Of a DNA stretch of 64,000 nucleotides, positions 1,317-57,691 are shown one piece after another; position 1 is the stretch's first letter; every line of letters begins with the position of its first letter. The stretch lies in the IMG/VR virus record IMGVR_UViG_3300033475_000015. One strand, written 5' to 3'. Source of the stretch: a virus. Both the position numbers and the translations under genes were made by a program. The notes under the pieces were generated by a model. That model saw nothing but the letters and a program-made list of their open reading frames with translations. It was not told the origin of the DNA and ran no database searches.

Positions 1317-1415
1317 GGGTCGATAGCTCAAATGGTAGAGCCGCGTAGTGGCGCGCCTGGTGACCTCCGGAAGCGAGCCTGCACGCGTGTGGTGGTTCGA
1401 TCCCACCTCGACCCC
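1317..1415 (+). ncRNA. tRNA-like RNA with ~36 nt in place of the anticodon loop
   Basis: Acceptor GGGTCGA/TCGACCC, D arm GCTC-AAATGGTA-GAGC, T arm GGTGG-TTCGATC-CCACC; stem CGCGT/ACGCG encloses 1347-1382. Confidence 0.7.
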
Positions 1416-3379: not shown

Positions 3380-3884
3380 TGACCCGGAGTTCAACCGGGC
3401 CGCCCTTGCCCGACGCGAGCGGGAGAAGGACGAGAACCGCCGTCTGACGCTGCAGGCCCTGGAGCTGCGCAAGAACGGCATGTCGTTCCGCGAGATCGCC
3501 GAGATCCAGCACTGCAACCCCCAGACCGCCGCCCGCCGGTATCGCAAGGGGTGCAAGCAGTACCTGCCGCAGGAGCTGGTGGAGTCGGCCCGAGCCACCG
3601 AGCTCGACCGGTTCGACGCCCTGACCCAGATCAACATCTCGTTGATCGCCGAGGCGTACAAGGCCCGCGACATCGACACGCTGCTGAAGCTCGAAGACCG
3701 CACGCTGGCGATCCACGACCGACGCAAGAAGTTGATCCCGATGGAGGTCCCGACCACCATCAAGCTGGACCAGACGATCGAGACGGTTACCGACCAGGAC
3801 AGGGAGCTGGCCGCGTTCCTGGACCAGCACGAGGCCGAGGTGGAAGCGGAGATCCGCCGGATCCGAGAGACTGCCGCGCCATGA
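3369..3884 (+). CDS. HTH protein, probable terminase small subunit
   Basis: ALELRKNGMSFREIAEIQHCNPQTAARRY HTH plus helical body; upstream of terL. Confidence 0.55.
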   Translation: MATDDPEFNRAALARREREKDENRRLTLQALELRKNGMSFREIAEIQHCNPQTAARRYRKGCKQYLPQELVESARATELDRFDALTQINISLIAEAYKARDIDTLLKLEDRTLAIHDRRKKLIPMEVPTTIKLDQTIETVTDQDRELAAFLDQHEAEVEAEIRRIRETAAP

Positions 3885-4336
3885 CCGCCTCCCGATTCGA
3901 CCGGTACTACGGTCCGGCCATCTTCGGTGCCTTTGACGGCGTGGTCACCGTGCTGGGCGCCGTGTTCAGTCTGACCCACGACAGACACGCGCTGATCCTG
4001 TCCGGCGTCGGCCTGGCCGCCTCGGGCGCCGTGTCGATGGGCGCGGGTGAGTACCTGTCCGACAGCGACGCCGGGCTGGGCGCCAGCGCCGTCATCGGCC
4101 TGACCACCGGAGCGGGCACGCTGCTGCCCGTCGTGCCGTACATGGCGGACATGCCGCTGGCCACCTTCACCTCGATCACGCTGTGCCTGTTCGTCGCCGT
4201 CGGGATCAGCTGGGTCAAGTCCCGGACCGACCGGGGCACAACGCTGTTGCGCGCCGCTGCCCAGACGCTGGGCATTCTCGGGTTGGCCACCGCGTTCATC
4301 CTGCTATGCGCGTGGGCAACCGGTGCGGTAGGGTGA
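3881..4336 (+). CDS. VIT1/CCC1-family membrane protein (short)
   Basis: AIFGAFDGVVT...GAVSMGAGEYLS signature; several TM helices. Confidence 0.75.
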   Translation: MTASRFDRYYGPAIFGAFDGVVTVLGAVFSLTHDRHALILSGVGLAASGAVSMGAGEYLSDSDAGLGASAVIGLTTGAGTLLPVVPYMADMPLATFTSITLCLFVAVGISWVKSRTDRGTTLLRAAAQTLGILGLATAFILLCAWATGAVG

Positions 4337-41196: not shown

Positions 41197-42056
41197 TGGG
41201 TCTCCTTCTCGGCGATGCGCCGGTACCGGTCGAGGATGTCCGTCTTGCGGACGACCTGTCCTTGCGGGTAGAACGTGTAGTGGCTGACCAGCGCGTCCCC
41301 GATGATGTCGTTGGTCTTGCCGACCAGCGGCGGCCGGTGCACCGTGATCCAGTGCTCCTCTTCCGGGTAGTCCAGTACACCCGGGGTCGGCAGTTCGCAG
41401 AAGTCCGCGCCGTCGATCACGTGGCAGCTGACGCTGAACTGCTGGCGCGGGGCCAGCGGGTAATTCTGGTAGAAGTACGCCCGCTCCGGCGTGCCCTGCT
41501 CGATCCAGTCCAGCAGCAGCCGGTGAATCTTCACGGCGAACTGTCCGTCGCCCCAGCCGACCGGGTCCATGCAGAACGGGGACTGCACGACCCCGTACGA
41601 GGTCGGGATGATGTCCAGCTTCTGGGCGTACCAGCTGATGATCGCGTTGTTCCACATCAGCGCGAACGCGGCCAGCGTCCCGGGCAGCGCCACCTTGGCC
41701 TTGCACATCCGCTCGACCGCGTCCCGGTGCACATACACGATGTCGTCGTCGAACCGGACGAACAGGGTGTCGGGGTCGGCCATGTACCGGTAGGCGTACC
41801 CGGTGTTGCGCTGCTTGGGCGCCAGCTGGGGACACTCGGCCGGGCGACTGATCAGCCGGATGAACCCCTTGTACTGCTTGGCCAGCCGGTAGGCGTAGGC
41901 CAGGTCCCCGACCTGGCTGGGGTCGGTGTTCAGGTAGAGCCAGTATTCGTCGACGATCCCGCGCTCGTGTTCGCGCAGCAGATATTGCAGCAGGATGCTG
42001 ACAGTCGCCTCCCGACCGTACGGAGTCCAGGCGACAACCTTCTTGCCGTCGATCAC
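41193..42056 (-). CDS. Glycosyltransferase (GT-A-like, DDD motif)
   Basis: VVAWTPYGRE...LFVRFDDDIVYV. Confidence 0.7.
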   Translation of the reverse strand: MIDGKKVVAWTPYGREATVSILLQYLLREHERGIVDEYWLYLNTDPSQVGDLAYAYRLAKQYKGFIRLISRPAECPQLAPKQRNTGYAYRYMADPDTLFVRFDDDIVYVHRDAVERMCKAKVALPGTLAAFALMWNNAIISWYAQKLDIIPTSYGVVQSPFCMDPVGWGDGQFAVKIHRLLLDWIEQGTPERAYFYQNYPLAPRQQFSVSCHVIDGADFCELPTPGVLDYPEEEHWITVHRPPLVGKTNDIIGDALVSHYTFYPQGQVVRKTDILDRYRRIAEKETQ

Positions 42057-43075
42057 GGGCGGTCTCCGAACAGCAGGGGCGCCCACAGCCGGGCGGCCAG
42101 TCTCTCGATGGTGTATTCCTGGGCGACCTCGCGGGCCGCCGCGCCCATCTGCGCGCGCAGTTCGGGCTCGTTGATCAGAGTTCTGATCGGGGTCTCCCAA
42201 TCTCCGCCGGGCGGGACGAGGAACCCGGTCACCCCATCGCGGACAAAGGCCCGGTAGGGGATGGTGTCGCTGGCCACGATCGGGATTCCTAGGAACGCCG
42301 CTTCGAGAGCCTTGGTCGGGGCCTTGGCCTCGTTGTACCGGGTCCGGCGGTACGGCGCCACCCAGATGTCGAAGTCGACCACGTCCAGATACGCGTAGCT
42401 GTCGGGCACCCATCCGGTGATCGAGACCCCGGGCCGCGCCAGCCCGATCTCGCGCATCTCGTGGAACGGTACCCCCACAGTGTGCAGTTTCCCGCCCATA
42501 TCGCCGACCTTGGACAGGACTTCCTTGACGTCGTTGGTCAGCTCCCATTTGGTGAACGCGGTCCCAGCCCAGCCGACCGTCGGCCCGTCCTTGAGGGAAA
42601 GCGGGTCCAGCTCGTAGCGGGCGGGCTGGTCCAGGTACGCCTTGGGCAGGCCGTTCGGCACAACTACCGTGTTGGTGCAGTAGTCCGCGAACATCTCGGC
42701 AATGACGGGGGATACGCAGGTGGTGAACGTGCTCATGCCCGCGTTGGCCAGGATCCTGGTCTGCAGGCGGGTGTTGCCGTACTCAACCGCCGATCGGCCA
42801 AACTCCGGGTGCTCTGACAGATGGAAGTAGTCATCGTCGGCGTCGAACAGCGTCCTTTTGGCCTGCTGGAAGTTGAACCTCGACCACAGGATCGAGGGTC
42901 CGGGGGAGCTGACCCGCTGGCCCAGGACCGCGTCGCAGTCGCCGTAACCCTCGTGGTCGAACTCCAGGCCGGACCCGACGTCGTGACCCAGGGCGCGCAG
43001 GGCCTCCGCGACGATGACGGTGCGGTACCAGCCGCACCCGCCCTCGTCGGCCGACCACAGCCACGCCTTACCCAC
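42053..43075 (-). CDS. Glycosyltransferase (GT-B, family 4-like)
   Basis: DIWVAPY...KALEAAFLGIPIVASD...VRDGVTGFLV. Confidence 0.82.
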   Translation of the reverse strand: MGKAWLWSADEGGCGWYRTVIVAEALRALGHDVGSGLEFDHEGYGDCDAVLGQRVSSPGPSILWSRFNFQQAKRTLFDADDDYFHLSEHPEFGRSAVEYGNTRLQTRILANAGMSTFTTCVSPVIAEMFADYCTNTVVVPNGLPKAYLDQPARYELDPLSLKDGPTVGWAGTAFTKWELTNDVKEVLSKVGDMGGKLHTVGVPFHEMREIGLARPGVSITGWVPDSYAYLDVVDFDIWVAPYRRTRYNEAKAPTKALEAAFLGIPIVASDTIPYRAFVRDGVTGFLVPPGGDWETPIRTLINEPELRAQMGAAAREVAQEYTIERLAARLWAPLLFGDRP

Positions 43076-44066
43076 GAGACGGCTCGGTCACGTAGGCGCC
43101 CCCGCCGTGCAGCTGCTGCCCAGCCCGCCAGGTCGGCAGCCACCGGTCCAGGTACCAGTCGACCGTGACCTGGATGCCCGCCTCCAGGTCGGTCAGGTAG
43201 TCCGGGTCCATCCCGATGCTGTGCATCGTGTCGTTCAGCGCCACCACCCGCGCGCCCGGGGTCTCGCCGGGGCGCATCGGAGCGTGCACCAGGCCCGCCC
43301 CCTTGTGTCCCCGACGCTCGGCCGCCTTGATCACCAGCTCGGCCACCTCGTTCACGGTACGGTGCTCGGTCGGCCCGACCTCGATCACGTGCTTGAACAC
43401 GTCGCCTGCAGCTGCGAACTCCAGGGCGTTGACCAGAGCCGTGGCCACGTCGGTCACGAACACACAGTCGCTGACCTGCTCGCCGTCGCCGTAGATCTCG
43501 ATCGGCTGACCGGTCAGGGCCCGAGCCACGAACGCGGGCATGATCTTGCGGACCTTGCCGACACCGTATGGAGCGGCCATCAGCTGGCGCGGGCCGTAGG
43601 CGTTCACCACCCGCACCTGGTTGATCTTCGCCCCCCGATCCCGCACATACATGTGCCCGAGCGATTCGACGCAGGTCTTGGACGCCGAGTAGGGGTTGGA
43701 CATCCCGTGGTTGCCGACGCAGATGTTGACGGCCGGGATGCCGTACTGGACCGCCGCCTCCATCACGTTCATCCCGGCGATGACATTGGTCATCACGGCC
43801 GGACGCGGGTTGTGGACGGTCTCCTGTGTGCCCAGCACCGAGGCGAGGTGGATGATCCCGTCGCAGTGGGCGGCCAGTTCCGTGACCGCCACGTCGTCCC
43901 GTACGTCCCCGAGCGTCACCGGGACGAAGGACCGCTCGTCCATCGGGTGAGTGTGCGGGCGGTCCTTGCGGTTGTCGAAGATCACCGGAATGTGCCCCCG
44001 ATTGATCAGTTCGTCGACGACGTGGCCGCCGATGAACCCGGCGCCCCCCGTAACCGCGATCTTCAT
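43068..44066 (-). CDS. NAD-dependent sugar epimerase/dehydratase (extended SDR)
   Basis: VTGGAGFIG, HLAS, YSASK, NAYGPRQ, IYGDGEQ..DCVFVTDVA. Confidence 0.92.
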   Translation of the reverse strand: MKIAVTGGAGFIGGHVVDELINRGHIPVIFDNRKDRPHTHPMDERSFVPVTLGDVRDDVAVTELAAHCDGIIHLASVLGTQETVHNPRPAVMTNVIAGMNVMEAAVQYGIPAVNICVGNHGMSNPYSASKTCVESLGHMYVRDRGAKINQVRVVNAYGPRQLMAAPYGVGKVRKIMPAFVARALTGQPIEIYGDGEQVSDCVFVTDVATALVNALEFAAAGDVFKHVIEVGPTEHRTVNEVAELVIKAAERRGHKGAGLVHAPMRPGETPGARVVALNDTMHSIGMDPDYLTDLEAGIQVTVDWYLDRWLPTWRAGQQLHGGGAYVTEPSRG

Positions 44067-44193
44067 GCGCGCTCTCCTAAACAGACTGTCAAGCCATTCG
44101 GCCGAGCGTACCACGTCGGTTCAACCCAGCCAACCGGGCAAGGGGGAGGGGTGGTGTATGGCTGGCGCGGCGCGTCGATGTTAACCTGGGGGC

Positions 44194-54820: not shown

Positions 54821-55330
54821 ATGACAAGATCCGACATGTTCGAAGACGCAGTGCAGCATGAGACAGAGATCCGCTGGCACGACGACCCCGCCCGGTACCC
54901 GTACCTGCGCCAGCAGATCATGGGGCACACCTCCCGGTCCCGGGTGATCGGAGCGGGTGACCGCTGGTCGCTGGGCAAGCGCATCGTGGGCTACGCCGTA
55001 CTGGGTCCCAAGTCCCCTCCGGGACGGTTCGATCGTCGAATATTCTGGTGCAAGATGGTCGATCGGGACGGCAGTCGGGAGGACCCACCCTACAACGAGG
55101 CGGTGGATCCCCGGCTGATCCGGGCGGGGGTGGTGTGCCCATGGCTGTTCGGCTACTCCGTGCCTCTGGAGGACTGCGCCAGTTGGCTGGCTGCTCGCCG
55201 CAAGGAGATGGGGCTGGCCGAGGGGGAGCGGGCCGCTGCCGCCCCACCGAAGCGGGTACCCCCCATGACCAGGCAATCTTCGGTTTCACCCGGCGTTGCT
55301 CGATTGACAAGCCAACGCGGGGCACGGTAG
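54821..55330 (+). CDS. DUF6009-like protein
   Basis: EIRWHDDPARYPYLRQ...VGYAVL...FDRRIFW; leaderless TAGACT. Confidence 0.6.
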   Translation: MTRSDMFEDAVQHETEIRWHDDPARYPYLRQQIMGHTSRSRVIGAGDRWSLGKRIVGYAVLGPKSPPGRFDRRIFWCKMVDRDGSREDPPYNEAVDPRLIRAGVVCPWLFGYSVPLEDCASWLAARRKEMGLAEGERAAAAPPKRVPPMTRQSSVSPGVARLTSQRGAR

Positions 55331-55333
55331 TCT
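55304..55333 (+). promoter_or_regulatory. Sigma-A-type promoter for the Y RNA cluster
   Basis: TTGACA-N18-TAGTCT, 7 nt before the first Y RNA stem. Confidence 0.7.
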
Positions 55334-55339
55334 GGTACA

Positions 55340-55414
55340 CAGATCGAGCCGAACGGCAGCGGGTTACCCTTTCGCTAAGAGACAACCCCGCCGCCAACCA
55401 ACTCGCCCGATCTG
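55340..55414 (+). ncRNA. Y RNA-like 1 (short)
   Basis: Stem CAGATCG/CGATCTG; GCCGAACG Ro-binding motif; 3' ACCAACTCGCCC. Confidence 0.7.
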
Positions 55415-55428
55415 CGCACAATCGTCCT

Positions 55429-55512
55429 GGCGCCCGAGCTGAACGACCGTGGGTTACCTTTCACTCTGGATGAAACAAGTCACCCCACAGTCACCCCACT
55501 TGCCCGGGTTCC
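55429..55512 (+). ncRNA. Y RNA-like 2 with anticodon-like hairpin (CTG, Gln)
   Basis: CGAGCTGAACG; TTTCA-CTCTGGA-TGAAA; 3' ACCCCACTTGCCC. Confidence 0.7.
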
Positions 55513-55539
55513 TGGACGCGGCACCACTTGCTGGGCCTC

Positions 55540-55742
55540 GGCCGAGCGAGCTGAACGACCGTCGGTTATCGCCTCTTAAGCGGGTGGTTGCGGGTTCAAG
55601 TCCCGCCGAAGGCAGTACGACCGTGAGCCGGTGAACGGACGTTACGACGATCCGACCCGGGCAACCTCACGGCTCCACCTCCCTCGTAGCTCAATTGGCA
55701 GAGCACCTAAACACCGGCAGTCACCAACTCGCTCGCTCGGCC
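55540..55742 (+). ncRNA. Y RNA-like 3 (YrlA-type) with permuted tRNA module and 66-nt insert
   Basis: 12-bp terminal stem; anticodon loop CTCTTAA, T arm GCGGG-TTCAAGT-CCCGC, then D arm GCTC-AATTGGCA-GAGC. Confidence 0.8.
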
Positions 55743-55761
55743 GGGACCCAGTTGGTGGACC

Positions 55762-55894
55762 GCGCGAGCTGAATGAGAGTCGGTTATCTCTTTAGAAAAG
55801 GGCCGGTCCGGGTTCGAACCCCGGCGTCTCCACGTGGGGACGTAGTGTAATTGGCAGCACGGTAAACACCGACGATCAACCACCTTGCCCGCGC
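55762..55894 (+). ncRNA. Y RNA-like 4 (YrlA-type) with permuted tRNA module
   Basis: CGAGCTGAATG; T arm CCGGG-TTCGAAC-CCCGG; acceptor CGTCTCC-ACGT-GGGGACG; D arm GTGT-AATTGGCA-GCAC. Confidence 0.82.
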
Positions 55895-55996
55895 ACCCCA
55901 GTCCGGCCCCGATCCGTTTGGCCCCCCCGGCGGATCGGGGCCGGGCCCATCCTCGCCCGATGACTGCGTCATCGAGCCGAATGCTAGGAGATCGAC

Positions 55997-57691
55997 ATGA
56001 GCAACGCTTTGTCTCGCCACGGCCAGACACACTCGACCCCCCAGACGTCCCCGATCCCGGGCCGCGAGCCCGACATGGTCCAGAACGCGGCGGGCGGCTA
56101 CGCCTTCGCCAAGGACCTGTTCGAGCGACTCCAGGACTTCCTGATCCTGGGCACCGAGGGCAACACCTACTACGCCGACGAGAAGTCCCGCACCCTGCAG
56201 AACGTGCAGGTGGTGCACGACGCGATCCGGGCCGACGGTCTGCGGGCTGTCAAGCTGGCCGTCGAGATCTCCACGGCCCGTCCGGCCCGTGCCGTCAAGA
56301 ACTTCCCGGCCCTGTACACGATCGCCGCTGCGCTGTGCTCGGACGACCTGGCCACCCGCCAGGCGGCGGCGGGCTCGACCCACCTGGTCGCCCGAACCAC
56401 CGACCATCAGGCCCACCTGTTCGGCTACGTCAAGTCGATGAAGGGCAAGCCCGGCGGGCGCAACGGCCGGTCCCCGTCTGTCGGCGGTCCCGTGTTCAAG
56501 CGTGCCTGGACCAACCTGTTCGTCCAGGACCGGGCCGACGCCGTGGCGTACCGGTACCTCAAGGCCCGGTCCCGCAAGACCGGTGACGGCGAGCCCTTCT
56601 CTCCGCGCGACCTGCTGCGCATCGCCAAGCCCGTCCCGAACAGCGAGGTCCAGAGCACCCTGTTCGGCCTGATCTCTGGCAAGGTCAGCCCCATGGAGGC
56701 GAGTGGTGCGCTGGCCTCGTGCAAGTCGTTCTATGAGGCTCAGCTGGCCGACACCCCGGCCAAGGCGGTCCGGGCGATCAACGCCTACCACGTCCCGTGG
56801 GAGTTCCTGCCCACCGAGGTCCTGAAGCACCCGGAGGTCTGGGAGGCCCTGGTCCCGCACCTGGGCATGACGGCCCTGATCCGCAACCTGTCGCGGATGA
56901 CCCAGATCGGAACCCTCGGCCCCTTCAAGCGGGCCAACCGCCGGGTGGCCCAGCGGCTGACCGACCAGGCCGAGCTGCACGCGGCCCGGATCCACCCGTT
57001 CGACCTGCTGCTGGCCCTGAAGGTCTACGAGTCCGGCGCGGCCCAGCCGAATCTTAAGGCACCGGTCCGCACCTGGGACCCGGTGCCCGAGATCGTCACC
57101 GCCTTGAACGAGGCCTACGTCAAGTCCTTTGCGGTCTGCGACAAGATCCCCGGCAACCTGCTGGTGGCCGTCGACAGCTCGGGCTCGATGCAGGGCACGA
57201 ACGTCCAGCACGGCGGGTCAAATCTGGGGTCGGCCTATCGCATGGCCCTGGCGTTCGGCCAGATCCTGATGCGCACCTGGGGCGGCCAGGTCCACATGGT
57301 CGACTTCGACCAGGAGCTGCGCCGCAGCCCGCTGCGGGCCGACATGACCCTGTCCGAGATCAACCGTCTGCACAACGGCCGGGGCTGGGGTACCGACGCC
57401 TCGGTCGTGATGCGCTGGGCCACCCAGCACCGCCACTTCGTCGACGGGTTCGTCCTGATCACGGACAACGAGTCGTGGGCCGGGGACCGCCACGCCAGCC
57501 AGGCCCTGACCGAGTACCGCCGTACGGTCAACCCCAACGCCCGCGTGATCTGGGCGGCCACAGTCCCGAATGGCTACAGCCTCGGCGACCCGACCGACCC
57601 CGGCATGCTGAACGTCCAGGGGTTCGACAGCAACCTGGCCACCCTGGTCTCCTCGTTCATCGGGCCCGCCGTGCGGGCGCCGATGGGGTAG
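55997..57691 (+). CDS. rsr: Ro60-related TROVE-domain RNA-binding protein with vWA domain
   Basis: QNAAGGYAF, FLILGTEGNTYY, MTALIRNLSRM, RIHPF, VAVDSSGSM, GTD, ITDNE, DPGMLNVQGFD. Confidence 0.93.
   Translation: MSNALSRHGQTHSTPQTSPIPGREPDMVQNAAGGYAFAKDLFERLQDFLILGTEGNTYYADEKSRTLQNVQVVHDAIRADGLRAVKLAVEISTARPARAVKNFPALYTIAAALCSDDLATRQAAAGSTHLVARTTDHQAHLFGYVKSMKGKPGGRNGRSPSVGGPVFKRAWTNLFVQDRADAVAYRYLKARSRKTGDGEPFSPRDLLRIAKPVPNSEVQSTLFGLISGKVSPMEASGALASCKSFYEAQLADTPAKAVRAINAYHVPWEFLPTEVLKHPEVWEALVPHLGMTALIRNLSRMTQIGTLGPFKRANRRVAQRLTDQAELHAARIHPFDLLLALKVYESGAAQPNLKAPVRTWDPVPEIVTALNEAYVKSFAVCDKIPGNLLVAVDSSGSMQGTNVQHGGSNLGSAYRMALAFGQILMRTWGGQVHMVDFDQELRRSPLRADMTLSEINRLHNGRGWGTDASVVMRWATQHRHFVDGFVLITDNESWAGDRHASQALTEYRRTVNPNARVIWAATVPNGYSLGDPTDPGMLNVQGFDSNLATLVSSFIGPAVRAPMG

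What the first reader, a model, noticed from the sequence alone, without database searches (positions are those of the whole stretch)
55808..55860. Y4 acceptor stem carries the alanine identity set G3-U70 plus A73, closed by a 4-nt loop
Seen: GGGGACG (55836-55842) pairs with CGTCTCC (55825-55831), giving G1-C72, G2-C71, G3-U70, with A at 55832 as discriminator. Known: G3-U70 is the AlaRS determinant, used by tmRNA including permuted two-piece tmRNAs. Inference: opening the loop and adding CCA would give an alanylatable RNA tethered to Ro, a possible ribosome-rescue or tagging device. No tag ORF is evident.
Basis: partly seen in the sequence, partly recalled or inferred. Interest (0 to 1): 0.68.

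Follow-up and report, generated by a model that had tools for sequence, protein, structure and literature searches.

The report
Alanine-marked phage Y RNA
This phage makes a small back-to-front tRNA look-alike (a Y RNA, partner of the Ro60 protein) whose sealed end carries the exact mark read by the cell's alanine-loading enzyme; the same mark is kept, far more often than chance, in a minority of such RNAs in many other phages, so they are probably cut open and loaded with alanine, but they are not tmRNA and the loading is untested.

Summary
Observation confirmed: 7-bp stem with G1-C72, G2-C71, G3·U70, A73, C74, closed by a 4-nt loop. It lies in the last of four Y RNAs upstream of a phage Ro60 gene. 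Y4 (55760-55896) is a YrlA-type RNA: a whole tRNA permuted at about 28/29, with a Ser-like AGA loop and an alanine acceptor. The mark is not universal: 4 of 12 orthologue loci, 6 of 125 unselected YrlAs (0.44 expected), 0 of 47 bacterial ones. But it behaves as a selected unit. In 78 phage YrlAs, A73 accompanies G3·U70 in 22/24 versus 17/54 otherwise (p 1e-6; 9e-4 after clustering); G·U is absent from pairs 4-5; pairs 4-6, T/D stems and anticodon loops vary, and no loop is Ala. M. smegmatis YrlA is known to be RNase P-cut and CCA-added, so alanylation is plausible (about 0.55) but unshown. It is not a tmRNA (no tag, has a D stem); ribosome rescue is unlikely. Cultured Streptomyces phages (Gilson, Comrade, Faust) carry the same subclass, so it can be tested directly. 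The scan noted alanine marks on other Ro60-linked RNAs before.

The parts
55304..55333 (+). Likely promoter of the Y RNA-Ro60 operon (TTGACA, 18 nt, TAGTCT)
   Evidence: Seen in sequence; a similar -35 box sits at the same place in L001 and L002; below the threshold of the sigma-70 scan; inferred
55340..55415 (+). Y1: Ro-handle hairpin RNA without T/D arms (YrlB-like)
   Evidence: Fold z -3.3; GNCGAAN-G motif
55432..55509 (+). Y2: Ro-handle RNA ending in one anticodon-like hairpin
   Evidence: Fold, motif
55539..55743 (+). Y3: YrlA-type RNA with Lys(CUU) anticodon hairpin and a 66-nt insert in a poorly paired acceptor stem (no alanine set)
   Evidence: Rfam YrlA 29.6 bits; fold z -3.7; un-permuted form called tRNA-Lys in several registers, tRNA-Leu in others
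55760..55787 (+). Y4 5' strand of the Ro60-binding handle (motif variant 55768-55775; conserved GGTTAT 55782-55787)
   Evidence: motif definition in PMC4201824
55788..55802 (+). Y4 'V' hairpin = anticodon stem-loop mimic, 7-nt loop 55792-55798 with U33, AGA (Ser-like), A37, A38
   Evidence: Fixed-register test across YrlAs; ARAGORN on the un-permuted sequence gives tRNA-Ser(aga), score 121.8
55808..55824 (+). Y4 T arm; U55807 can form the A15-U48 Levitt pair
55825..55833 (+). Acceptor 3' strand (66-72), discriminator A73, C74
55834..55835 (+). Two linker bases predicted to be removed; predicted RNase P cut between 55835 and 55836
   Evidence: Inference from M. smegmatis YrlA processing (PMC4201824)
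55836..55842 (+). Acceptor 5' strand (1-7) with G3 of the G3·U70 pair
55843..55860 (+). U8, A9 and D arm (4-bp stem, GG in the loop)
55861..55896 (+). Positions 26-28 and 3' strand of the Ro60-binding handle
   Evidence: Fold
55903..55944 (+). Strong GC hairpin between Y4 and the Ro gene (processing or stability element; no T run)
   Evidence: not terminator-like
55997..57691 (+). Ro60/Rsr gene (TROVE + vWA_Ro60, 564 aa)
   Evidence: Pfam PF05731 and PF25045 over cut-off; homologues

Best explanation
Y4 is a YrlA-type Y RNA bound by the phage's own Ro60 and belongs to a minority 'alanine-marked' subclass. Steps: (1) the four Y RNAs and Ro60 are transcribed together and Y4 folds as an L-shaped permuted tRNA on a Ro-binding handle (anatomy shown; binding inferred). 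(2) Host RNase P cuts before G55836; two bases are trimmed and CCA is completed on A73-C74, giving a two-piece RNA (inferred from M. smegmatis YrlA). (3) Host AlaRS, which reads the acceptor and not the anticodon, loads alanine (inferred from selection on G3·U70 with A73). (4) Purpose, least certain (about 0.3): alanine is the simplest way to charge a mimic whose anticodon arm is interrupted and fast-changing. The charged end is shielded from 3' exonucleases and from sensors of uncharged tRNA and can bind EF-Tu, so Ro60 displays a stable aminoacyl-tRNA look-alike as a tether or as bait for host tRNA-attacking defence enzymes. It does not tag proteins.
For: YrlA anatomy and position 100 nt before Ro60. 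Exhaustive IMG/VR pattern scan with pair 3 and base 73 left free: 78 distinct RNAs; A73 in 22/24 with G3·U70 vs 17/54 without (Fisher 1e-6). The coupling holds for Ro-adjacent RNAs only (12/14 vs 9/30, p 9e-4) and after clustering bodies at 80% (p 9e-4). Among A73 stems G·U occurs 22 times at pair 3, 0 at pair 4, 0 at pair 5, 7 at pair 6. The same coupling appears in sets found without any acceptor constraint (6/9 vs 5/116). The 24 G·U RNAs have 11 different pair-4-6 combinations, 21 T arms and 5 D stems, are no more alike than to the others (58% vs 57%), and none has an Ala anticodon loop. Rate 22/39 exceeds that in real tRNAs of the same context (14/54, all Ala; p 0.005). In cultured Loccivirinae phages the stem stays fixed while anticodon loop, T stem and D stem change. 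[quoted passage not shown] G3·U70 as AlaRS determinant: PMC9976931.
Against: No RNA data of any kind. Only 4 of 12 orthologue loci keep the set (W, L009, L019, L024); the closest Ro relative L005 lacks it, and L186, near-identical to the Gilson RNA, has G3-C70. Most subclass members have 6-7-nt loops; 4 nt is rare (1 of 24). The M. smegmatis-size RNA L517 has G1·U72 and G3-C70, so opening does not imply alanine. G·U wobbles are also common at pair 6. Sequences are not fully independent. Step 4 has no direct support.
Confidence: 0.55

Rival explanations
1. Ordinary closed-loop YrlA: the alanine-type stem is a relic of a tRNA-Ala or tmRNA ancestor, or recent drift; the loop is never opened or charged and the RNA only tethers or gates Ro60 through its elbow.
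For: Most YrlAs have closed, variable acceptor stems (bioRxiv 10.1101/312249). 8 of 12 orthologue loci and 47 of 47 bacterial YrlAs lack the set. The identical stem occurs in 3 real tRNA-Ala genes of the loci, and linear tRNA-Ala genes sit beside YrlAs in this phage group. The tight 4-nt loop may hinder RNase P.
Against: A relic should decay by one transition to G-C or A-U. Instead G·U persists while pairs 4-6, T, D and anticodon loops change, and it is tied to A73 and specific to position 3. The anticodon loop next to the 3' strand is never Ala.
Confidence: 0.25
2. Opened and CCA-added, or bound by acceptor-reading proteins, but charging is not the point: G1, G2 and A73 are kept for RNase P and the CCA enzyme, and G3·U70 serves as bait or docking site for AlaRS or DTD-type readers without lasting alanylation.
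For: A73-C74 also occurs with G3-C70 and A3-U70 stems (7 and 4 cases). G3·U70 is also a DTD determinant (PMC9976931).
Against: A CCA-bearing stem with this set is expected to be an AlaRS substrate by default; no evidence for a blocker.
Confidence: 0.12
3. Ribosome rescue or alanine tagging: the charged RNA enters the A site of stalled ribosomes (or split 50S subunits) and accepts the nascent chain, either without a tag or by reading Ser codons as Ala through its AGA loop.
For: The acceptor branch resembles permuted tmRNA (RF04321 partial, 24.5 bits). All tRNA parts are present. Ro60 operons are linked to RNA repair.
Against: No tag frame, pseudoknot or SmpB-type D loop. No SmpB, RtcB or similar gene among the 20 window proteins scanned (other ORFs not scanned). 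The Ro handle and a 60-kDa ring sit in the anticodon stem, which should clash with the decoding site (inference). Anticodon loops vary without pattern.
Confidence: 0.07
4. Permuted tRNA gene: the handle is excised and the ends ligated, as in algal and archaeal permuted tRNAs, giving a mature Ala-charged tRNA with an AGA anticodon.
For: The un-permuted sequence is a canonical cloverleaf; the possibility is raised in bioRxiv 10.1101/312249.
Against: No bulge-helix-bulge junction seen, no such splicing enzyme known in bacteria (same paper); the product would mistranslate Ser codons; the handle motif is conserved.
Confidence: 0.02

Closest known systems
Mycobacterium smegmatis YrlA (Rfam RF02553; Chen et al. 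2014, PMC4201824)
   Same: Upstream of Ro60/Rsr with sister Y RNAs; T arm before D arm; 7-bp acceptor closed by a short loop; the only YrlA shown to be RNase P-cut and CCA-added. Its fragment sizes (147, 82 with added CA, 65) imply about two bases lost, as predicted here.
   Different: Aminoacylation was only speculated. Y4 is phage-encoded, has a Gln/Glu-type D arm and scores far below the Rfam cut-off (19 vs 69 bits).
Salmonella Typhimurium YrlA (PDB 6CU1; bioRxiv 10.1101/312249)
   Same: L-shaped tRNA mimic with a closed acceptor loop, tethered to Rsr.
   Different: 6-bp acceptor, not cleaved, no anticodon-like hairpin; Y4 has 7 bp, the alanine set and a 7-nt anticodon-type loop.
Two-piece (permuted) tmRNA (RF04321; PMC3985003)
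   Same: Gene order T arm, acceptor 3' strand, linker, acceptor 5' strand; G3·U70 and A73; same proposed maturation by RNase P and CCA addition.
   Different: No tag-coding region, no pseudoknots, a real D stem, 2-nt rather than about 25-nt linker, Ro60 handle instead of SmpB partner.
Circularly permuted tRNA genes of Cyanidioschyzon and Thermofilum (PMC3978253)
   Same: 3' half before 5' half; acceptor loop removed by RNase P and RNase Z; linkers as short as 1 nt exist.
   Different: Those are spliced and religated into decoding tRNAs whose acceptor matches the anticodon; here acceptor (Ala) and loop (Ser-like) disagree and the break carries a protein-binding handle.

Membership tests
YrlA Y RNA | Within 4 kb of a Ro60/TROVE gene, same strand | tested here: met
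   Ro gene starts at 55997; PF05731 and PF25045 over cut-off
YrlA Y RNA | T arm 5' of D arm with an acceptor stem-loop between them; tRNA tertiary bases present | tested here: met
   (U8, A14, A15-U48, G18, G19, T loop)
YrlA Y RNA | GNCGAAN0-1G Rsr motif on a 5'/3' handle, YUAY before the V hairpin | tested here: inconclusive
   Handle and TTAT present; the motif has U for C at its third position in Y2-Y4, canonical in Y1
YrlA Y RNA | Rfam RF02553 gathering score (69 bits) | tested here: not met
   19.0 bits, E 0.08; other clear phage YrlAs also fall short (29-47 bits), so the model is narrow. Filed as a variant, not a scoring member
YrlA Y RNA | Expressed and bound by Ro60; pseudouridine 55 and dihydrouridine | not testable with these tools
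   No RNA holder listed
tmRNA (one- or two-piece) | Acceptor with G3·U70 and A73, T arm | tested here: met
tmRNA (one- or two-piece) | Tag reading frame with resume codon, flanked by pseudoknots | tested here: not met
   Only about 60 nt follow G1, all used by D arm and handle; no tag-like frame; ARAGORN none
tmRNA (one- or two-piece) | Deformed, stemless D arm for SmpB | tested here: not met
   4-bp D stem; feature per PMC3985003
tmRNA (one- or two-piece) | RF00023 or RF04321 gathering score (47 bits) | tested here: not met
   8.8 and 24.5 bits, partial
AlaRS substrate | G1-C72, G2-C71, G3·U70, A73 | tested here: met
   determinants per PMC9976931
AlaRS substrate | Free 3' CCA end | not testable with these tools
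   Not encoded (A73, C74, then G, U and the closed loop); depends on processing
Spliced permuted tRNA gene | Processing junction and acceptor identity matching the anticodon | tested here: not met
   Ala acceptor with Ser-like loop; no Ala loop in any of 24 relatives

The most novel reading that the evidence does not exclude
Phages keep an alanine-charged, two-piece, complete tRNA mimic on Ro60 that works at the ribosome: it accepts stalled nascent chains, or supplies alanine at codons whose tRNAs a host nuclease has destroyed. That would be a tagless, phage-encoded rescue system distinct from tmRNA.
Probability: 0.07. Interest if true: 0.9.

Novelty: new variant of a known kind. Interest (0 to 1): 0.6.

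Why it matters
Chen et al. 2014 left open whether any Y RNA is aminoacylated and judged it unlikely to be general. The comparative signal here names the subset in which it should happen, the amino acid, and the single base that should abolish it. If confirmed it would be the first charged Y RNA that I could find described, a further natural alanine acceptor beside tRNA-Ala and tmRNA, and a clue to what phage Ro60 does in infection; a Ro60-like protein of phage Bas63 is reported to counter the Ppl defence (PMC11482910). The same subclass sits unannotated or misannotated in cultured Streptomyces phages with laboratory hosts, so the test needs no new isolate.

Tried and rejected
No whole genome held for the window. 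No RNA holder listed; the one DNA run laid covered only Y3's tRNA-Lys-like part through real tRNA genes of other organisms. Neither bears on expression. The pair count on alignment A2 was misregistered by MAFFT and is not used; counts come from register-based scripts. The first detector missed D arms and was rewritten. The M. smegmatis YrlA sequence could not be obtained (no supplement; two reviews not held), so L517 is only a size-matched stand-in from an unnamed mycobacterial genome. The Ro tree cannot separate one gain with losses from several gains. Mutual exclusion of alanine-type YrlA and linear alanine RNAs in the phage group (4 and 4 of 14 loci, never both) is not significant (chance about 0.2 by hand calculation). 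tmRNA and spliced-tRNA readings rejected as in the membership table.

Full report
OBSERVATION. The stem is as described: 55825-55831 pairs with 55836-55842, with G3·U70, A73 at 55832 and C74 at 55833, and a 4-nt loop. The module folds as T arm, acceptor, D arm; six acceptor pairs have probability 0.99 or more in full Y4. The 'CCA' visible at 55830-55832 is C71-C72-A73, not a CCA tail.

CONTEXT. The window is phage DNA (portal, capsid, DNA polymerase A, sigma factor). The gene at 55997-57691 is Ro60 (TROVE + vWA). Its nearest relatives are from a group of contigs, several about 75 kb long, at 53-66% identity, then Actinomadura and Nonomuraea proteins at about 50%, so an actinobacterial host is likely (inference). 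Four Ro-handle RNAs precede it. Y3 and Y4 have the YrlA layout of Chen et al. 2014 (PMC4201824).

WHAT Y4 IS. The hairpin that the literature draws as a variable arm lies at the spacing of an anticodon arm. Across YrlAs a Y32-U33-N3-R37 loop on a 3-bp stem occurs in 25/131 and 52/105 cases at offsets 9 and 10 from the T stem, against 6/145, 0/74 and 1/51 at offsets 8, 11 and 12. Joining Y4's halves in tRNA order gives a 75-nt cloverleaf that ARAGORN calls tRNA-Ser(aga), score 121.8. So Y4 is a complete tRNA opened near 28/29, where the Ro handle is attached, with an alanine acceptor on a Ser-like loop. Rfam gives only weak partial matches: YrlA 19 bits, permuted tmRNA 24.5 bits.

IS G3·U70 CONSERVED? 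Not generally. In the phage group the Y4-type RNA has the full set in the window, L009, L019 and L024, with different pairs 4-6 each time. It lacks the set in L001/L017, L002, L005, L008, L013, L022, L026 and L037. On the Ro tree the four carriers are not one clade. In sets collected without acceptor constraint the full set is in 6 of 125 stems and in 0 of 47 YrlAs from bacterial loci.

IS IT SELECTED WHERE PRESENT? Yes, by three tests. (a) With G1-C72, G2-C71, A73 and C74 fixed and pair 3 free, a complete IMG/VR scan gave 33 distinct RNAs: G·U 18, G-C 7, A-U 4, C-G 3, U-A 1. (b) With base 73 also free (110 stretches, not truncated; 78 distinct RNAs after filtering out true tRNAs), A73 goes with G3·U70 in 22/24 against 17/54, p 1e-6. 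Among A73 stems G·U counts at pairs 3, 4, 5, 6 are 22, 0, 0, 7; among non-A73 stems 2, 4, 4, 2. The link survives clustering (p 3e-5 at 85%, 9e-4 at 80%) and restriction to Ro-adjacent RNAs (p 9e-4). (c) In the unselected sets the full combination is about 14 times more frequent than independence predicts (6 vs 0.44). The G·U carriers are not a tight family (58% body identity among themselves, 57% to others), show 11 versions of pairs 4-6, and none has an Ala anticodon loop. Real tRNAs in the same context have G3·U70 in 14/54, all tRNA-Ala. Where an array was visible, one member carried the set (5 of 5; also the window). Caveats: shared ancestry is reduced, not removed; wobbles are common at pair 6 in both orientations; L186, nearly identical to the Gilson RNA, has G3-C70.

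CULTURED EXAMPLES. The subclass occurs before Ro in Streptomyces phages Gilson, Comrade, Faust, Sham and Kenrey. Eighteen records match the U70 version of the core and none the C70 version. Across them the anticodon loop, T stem and D stem change while the acceptor stays. Gordonia phage Mareelih has one with a degenerate D arm, like L024.

CAN IT BE OPENED? M. smegmatis YrlA, with a 7-bp acceptor, is cut by RNase P and gains CA to end in CCA; YrlAs with other stems are not cut. The reported sizes imply a loss of about two bases, hence about a 4-nt loop (my arithmetic). A YrlA from an unnamed PPE-bearing mycobacterial genome has a 65-nt 3' part and a 4-nt loop starting A73-C74 (L517). So a 4-nt loop need not block processing, though most alanine-type relatives have 6-7 nt. 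L517 has G1·U72 and G3-C70, so processing and alanine identity are separable. Permuted tRNA genes elsewhere have linkers down to 1 nt (PMC3978253).

MECHANISM. Shown: anatomy, neighbourhood, selection signal. Inferred: Ro60 binding (about 0.9), opening and CCA addition (about 0.65), alanylation once opened (about 0.85), together about 0.55. AlaRS depends on the acceptor stem rather than the anticodon (PMC9976931, PMC3985003), which is why tmRNA uses it. The same logic explains an alanine mark on a mimic with a broken, changing anticodon arm without any rescue function. I favour charging as end protection and disguise for a Ro60-displayed tether or decoy (about 0.3 for this purpose). Rescue or tagging gets 0.07: there is no tag, a true D stem, and the handle sits where the decoding centre would be.

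COMPARISON AND NOVELTY. It works like M. smegmatis YrlA and shares only the acceptor branch with permuted tmRNA, whose defining features fail. I found no paper describing alanine identity or charging in Y RNAs; two reviews were not available. Earlier notes of this scan report alanine marks on other Ro60-linked tRNA mimics and the anticodon-arm reading; they are unchecked leads, and I had reached both readings before consulting them (note). Verdict: real feature, new variant of a known kind, interest 0.6.

Noticed in passing
window 55607-55686 (Y3 acceptor): Y3's acceptor loop holds a 66-nt folded insert that contains its own Ro-motif-like stretch near 55627; orthologue L005 has an 83-nt acceptor region, others a plain hairpin. 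The Lys(CUU) loop is kept in L002, L005, L008, L009 and L024, with a different stem in L002.
   Followed up: partly
window 1317-1415 +: tRNA-shaped element missed by ARAGORN: complete acceptor (G3-C70, C73), D and T arms, with a long rod in place of the anticodon loop; lies between tRNA-Met (1084-1159) and tRNA-Ile(TAT) (1568-1642).
   Followed up: partly
L001 2863-2926, L017 from 2367; L025 from 2294: Linear mini-tRNA with no anticodon arm, directly before Ro. It has the full alanine set and an encoded CCA in L001 and L017, and A3-U70 with an enlarged D loop in L025. These loci lack the alanine set in their YrlAs.
   Followed up: partly
L026 881, L036 627, L037 2271: Ordinary tRNA-Ala(GGC) genes inside the Y RNA-Ro operon of related phages that lack an alanine-type YrlA; possible functional substitution, not statistically supported.
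   Followed up: partly
L031 (Gordonia phage Mareelih OP820470.1) 3490-4300: A phage tmRNA, an alanine-type YrlA with degenerate D arm (T arm at 4084) and a second YrlA lie just downstream of Ro; the annotation calls overlapping tRNA-Gln and tRNA-Leu there.
   Followed up: no
L560 (phage Sham ON645339.1) 910-971: The alanine-type YrlA is annotated as tRNA-Ser(cga); the equivalent RNA is unannotated in Gilson, Comrade, Faust and Kenrey.
   Followed up: yes
L509, second YrlA: Acceptor of 8 bp with a G·U third from the loop followed by A, next to a standard alanine-type YrlA.
   Followed up: no
L034 (Microbacterium phage SM23) 1474-3048: The Ro gene is annotated as two separate CDS under one continuous protein match; possible frameshift or annotation split.
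   Followed up: no
window 42053-44114 -: Glycosyltransferase and NAD-dependent epimerase genes on the opposite strand, next to an Rv2525c-like hydrolase gene.
   Followed up: no
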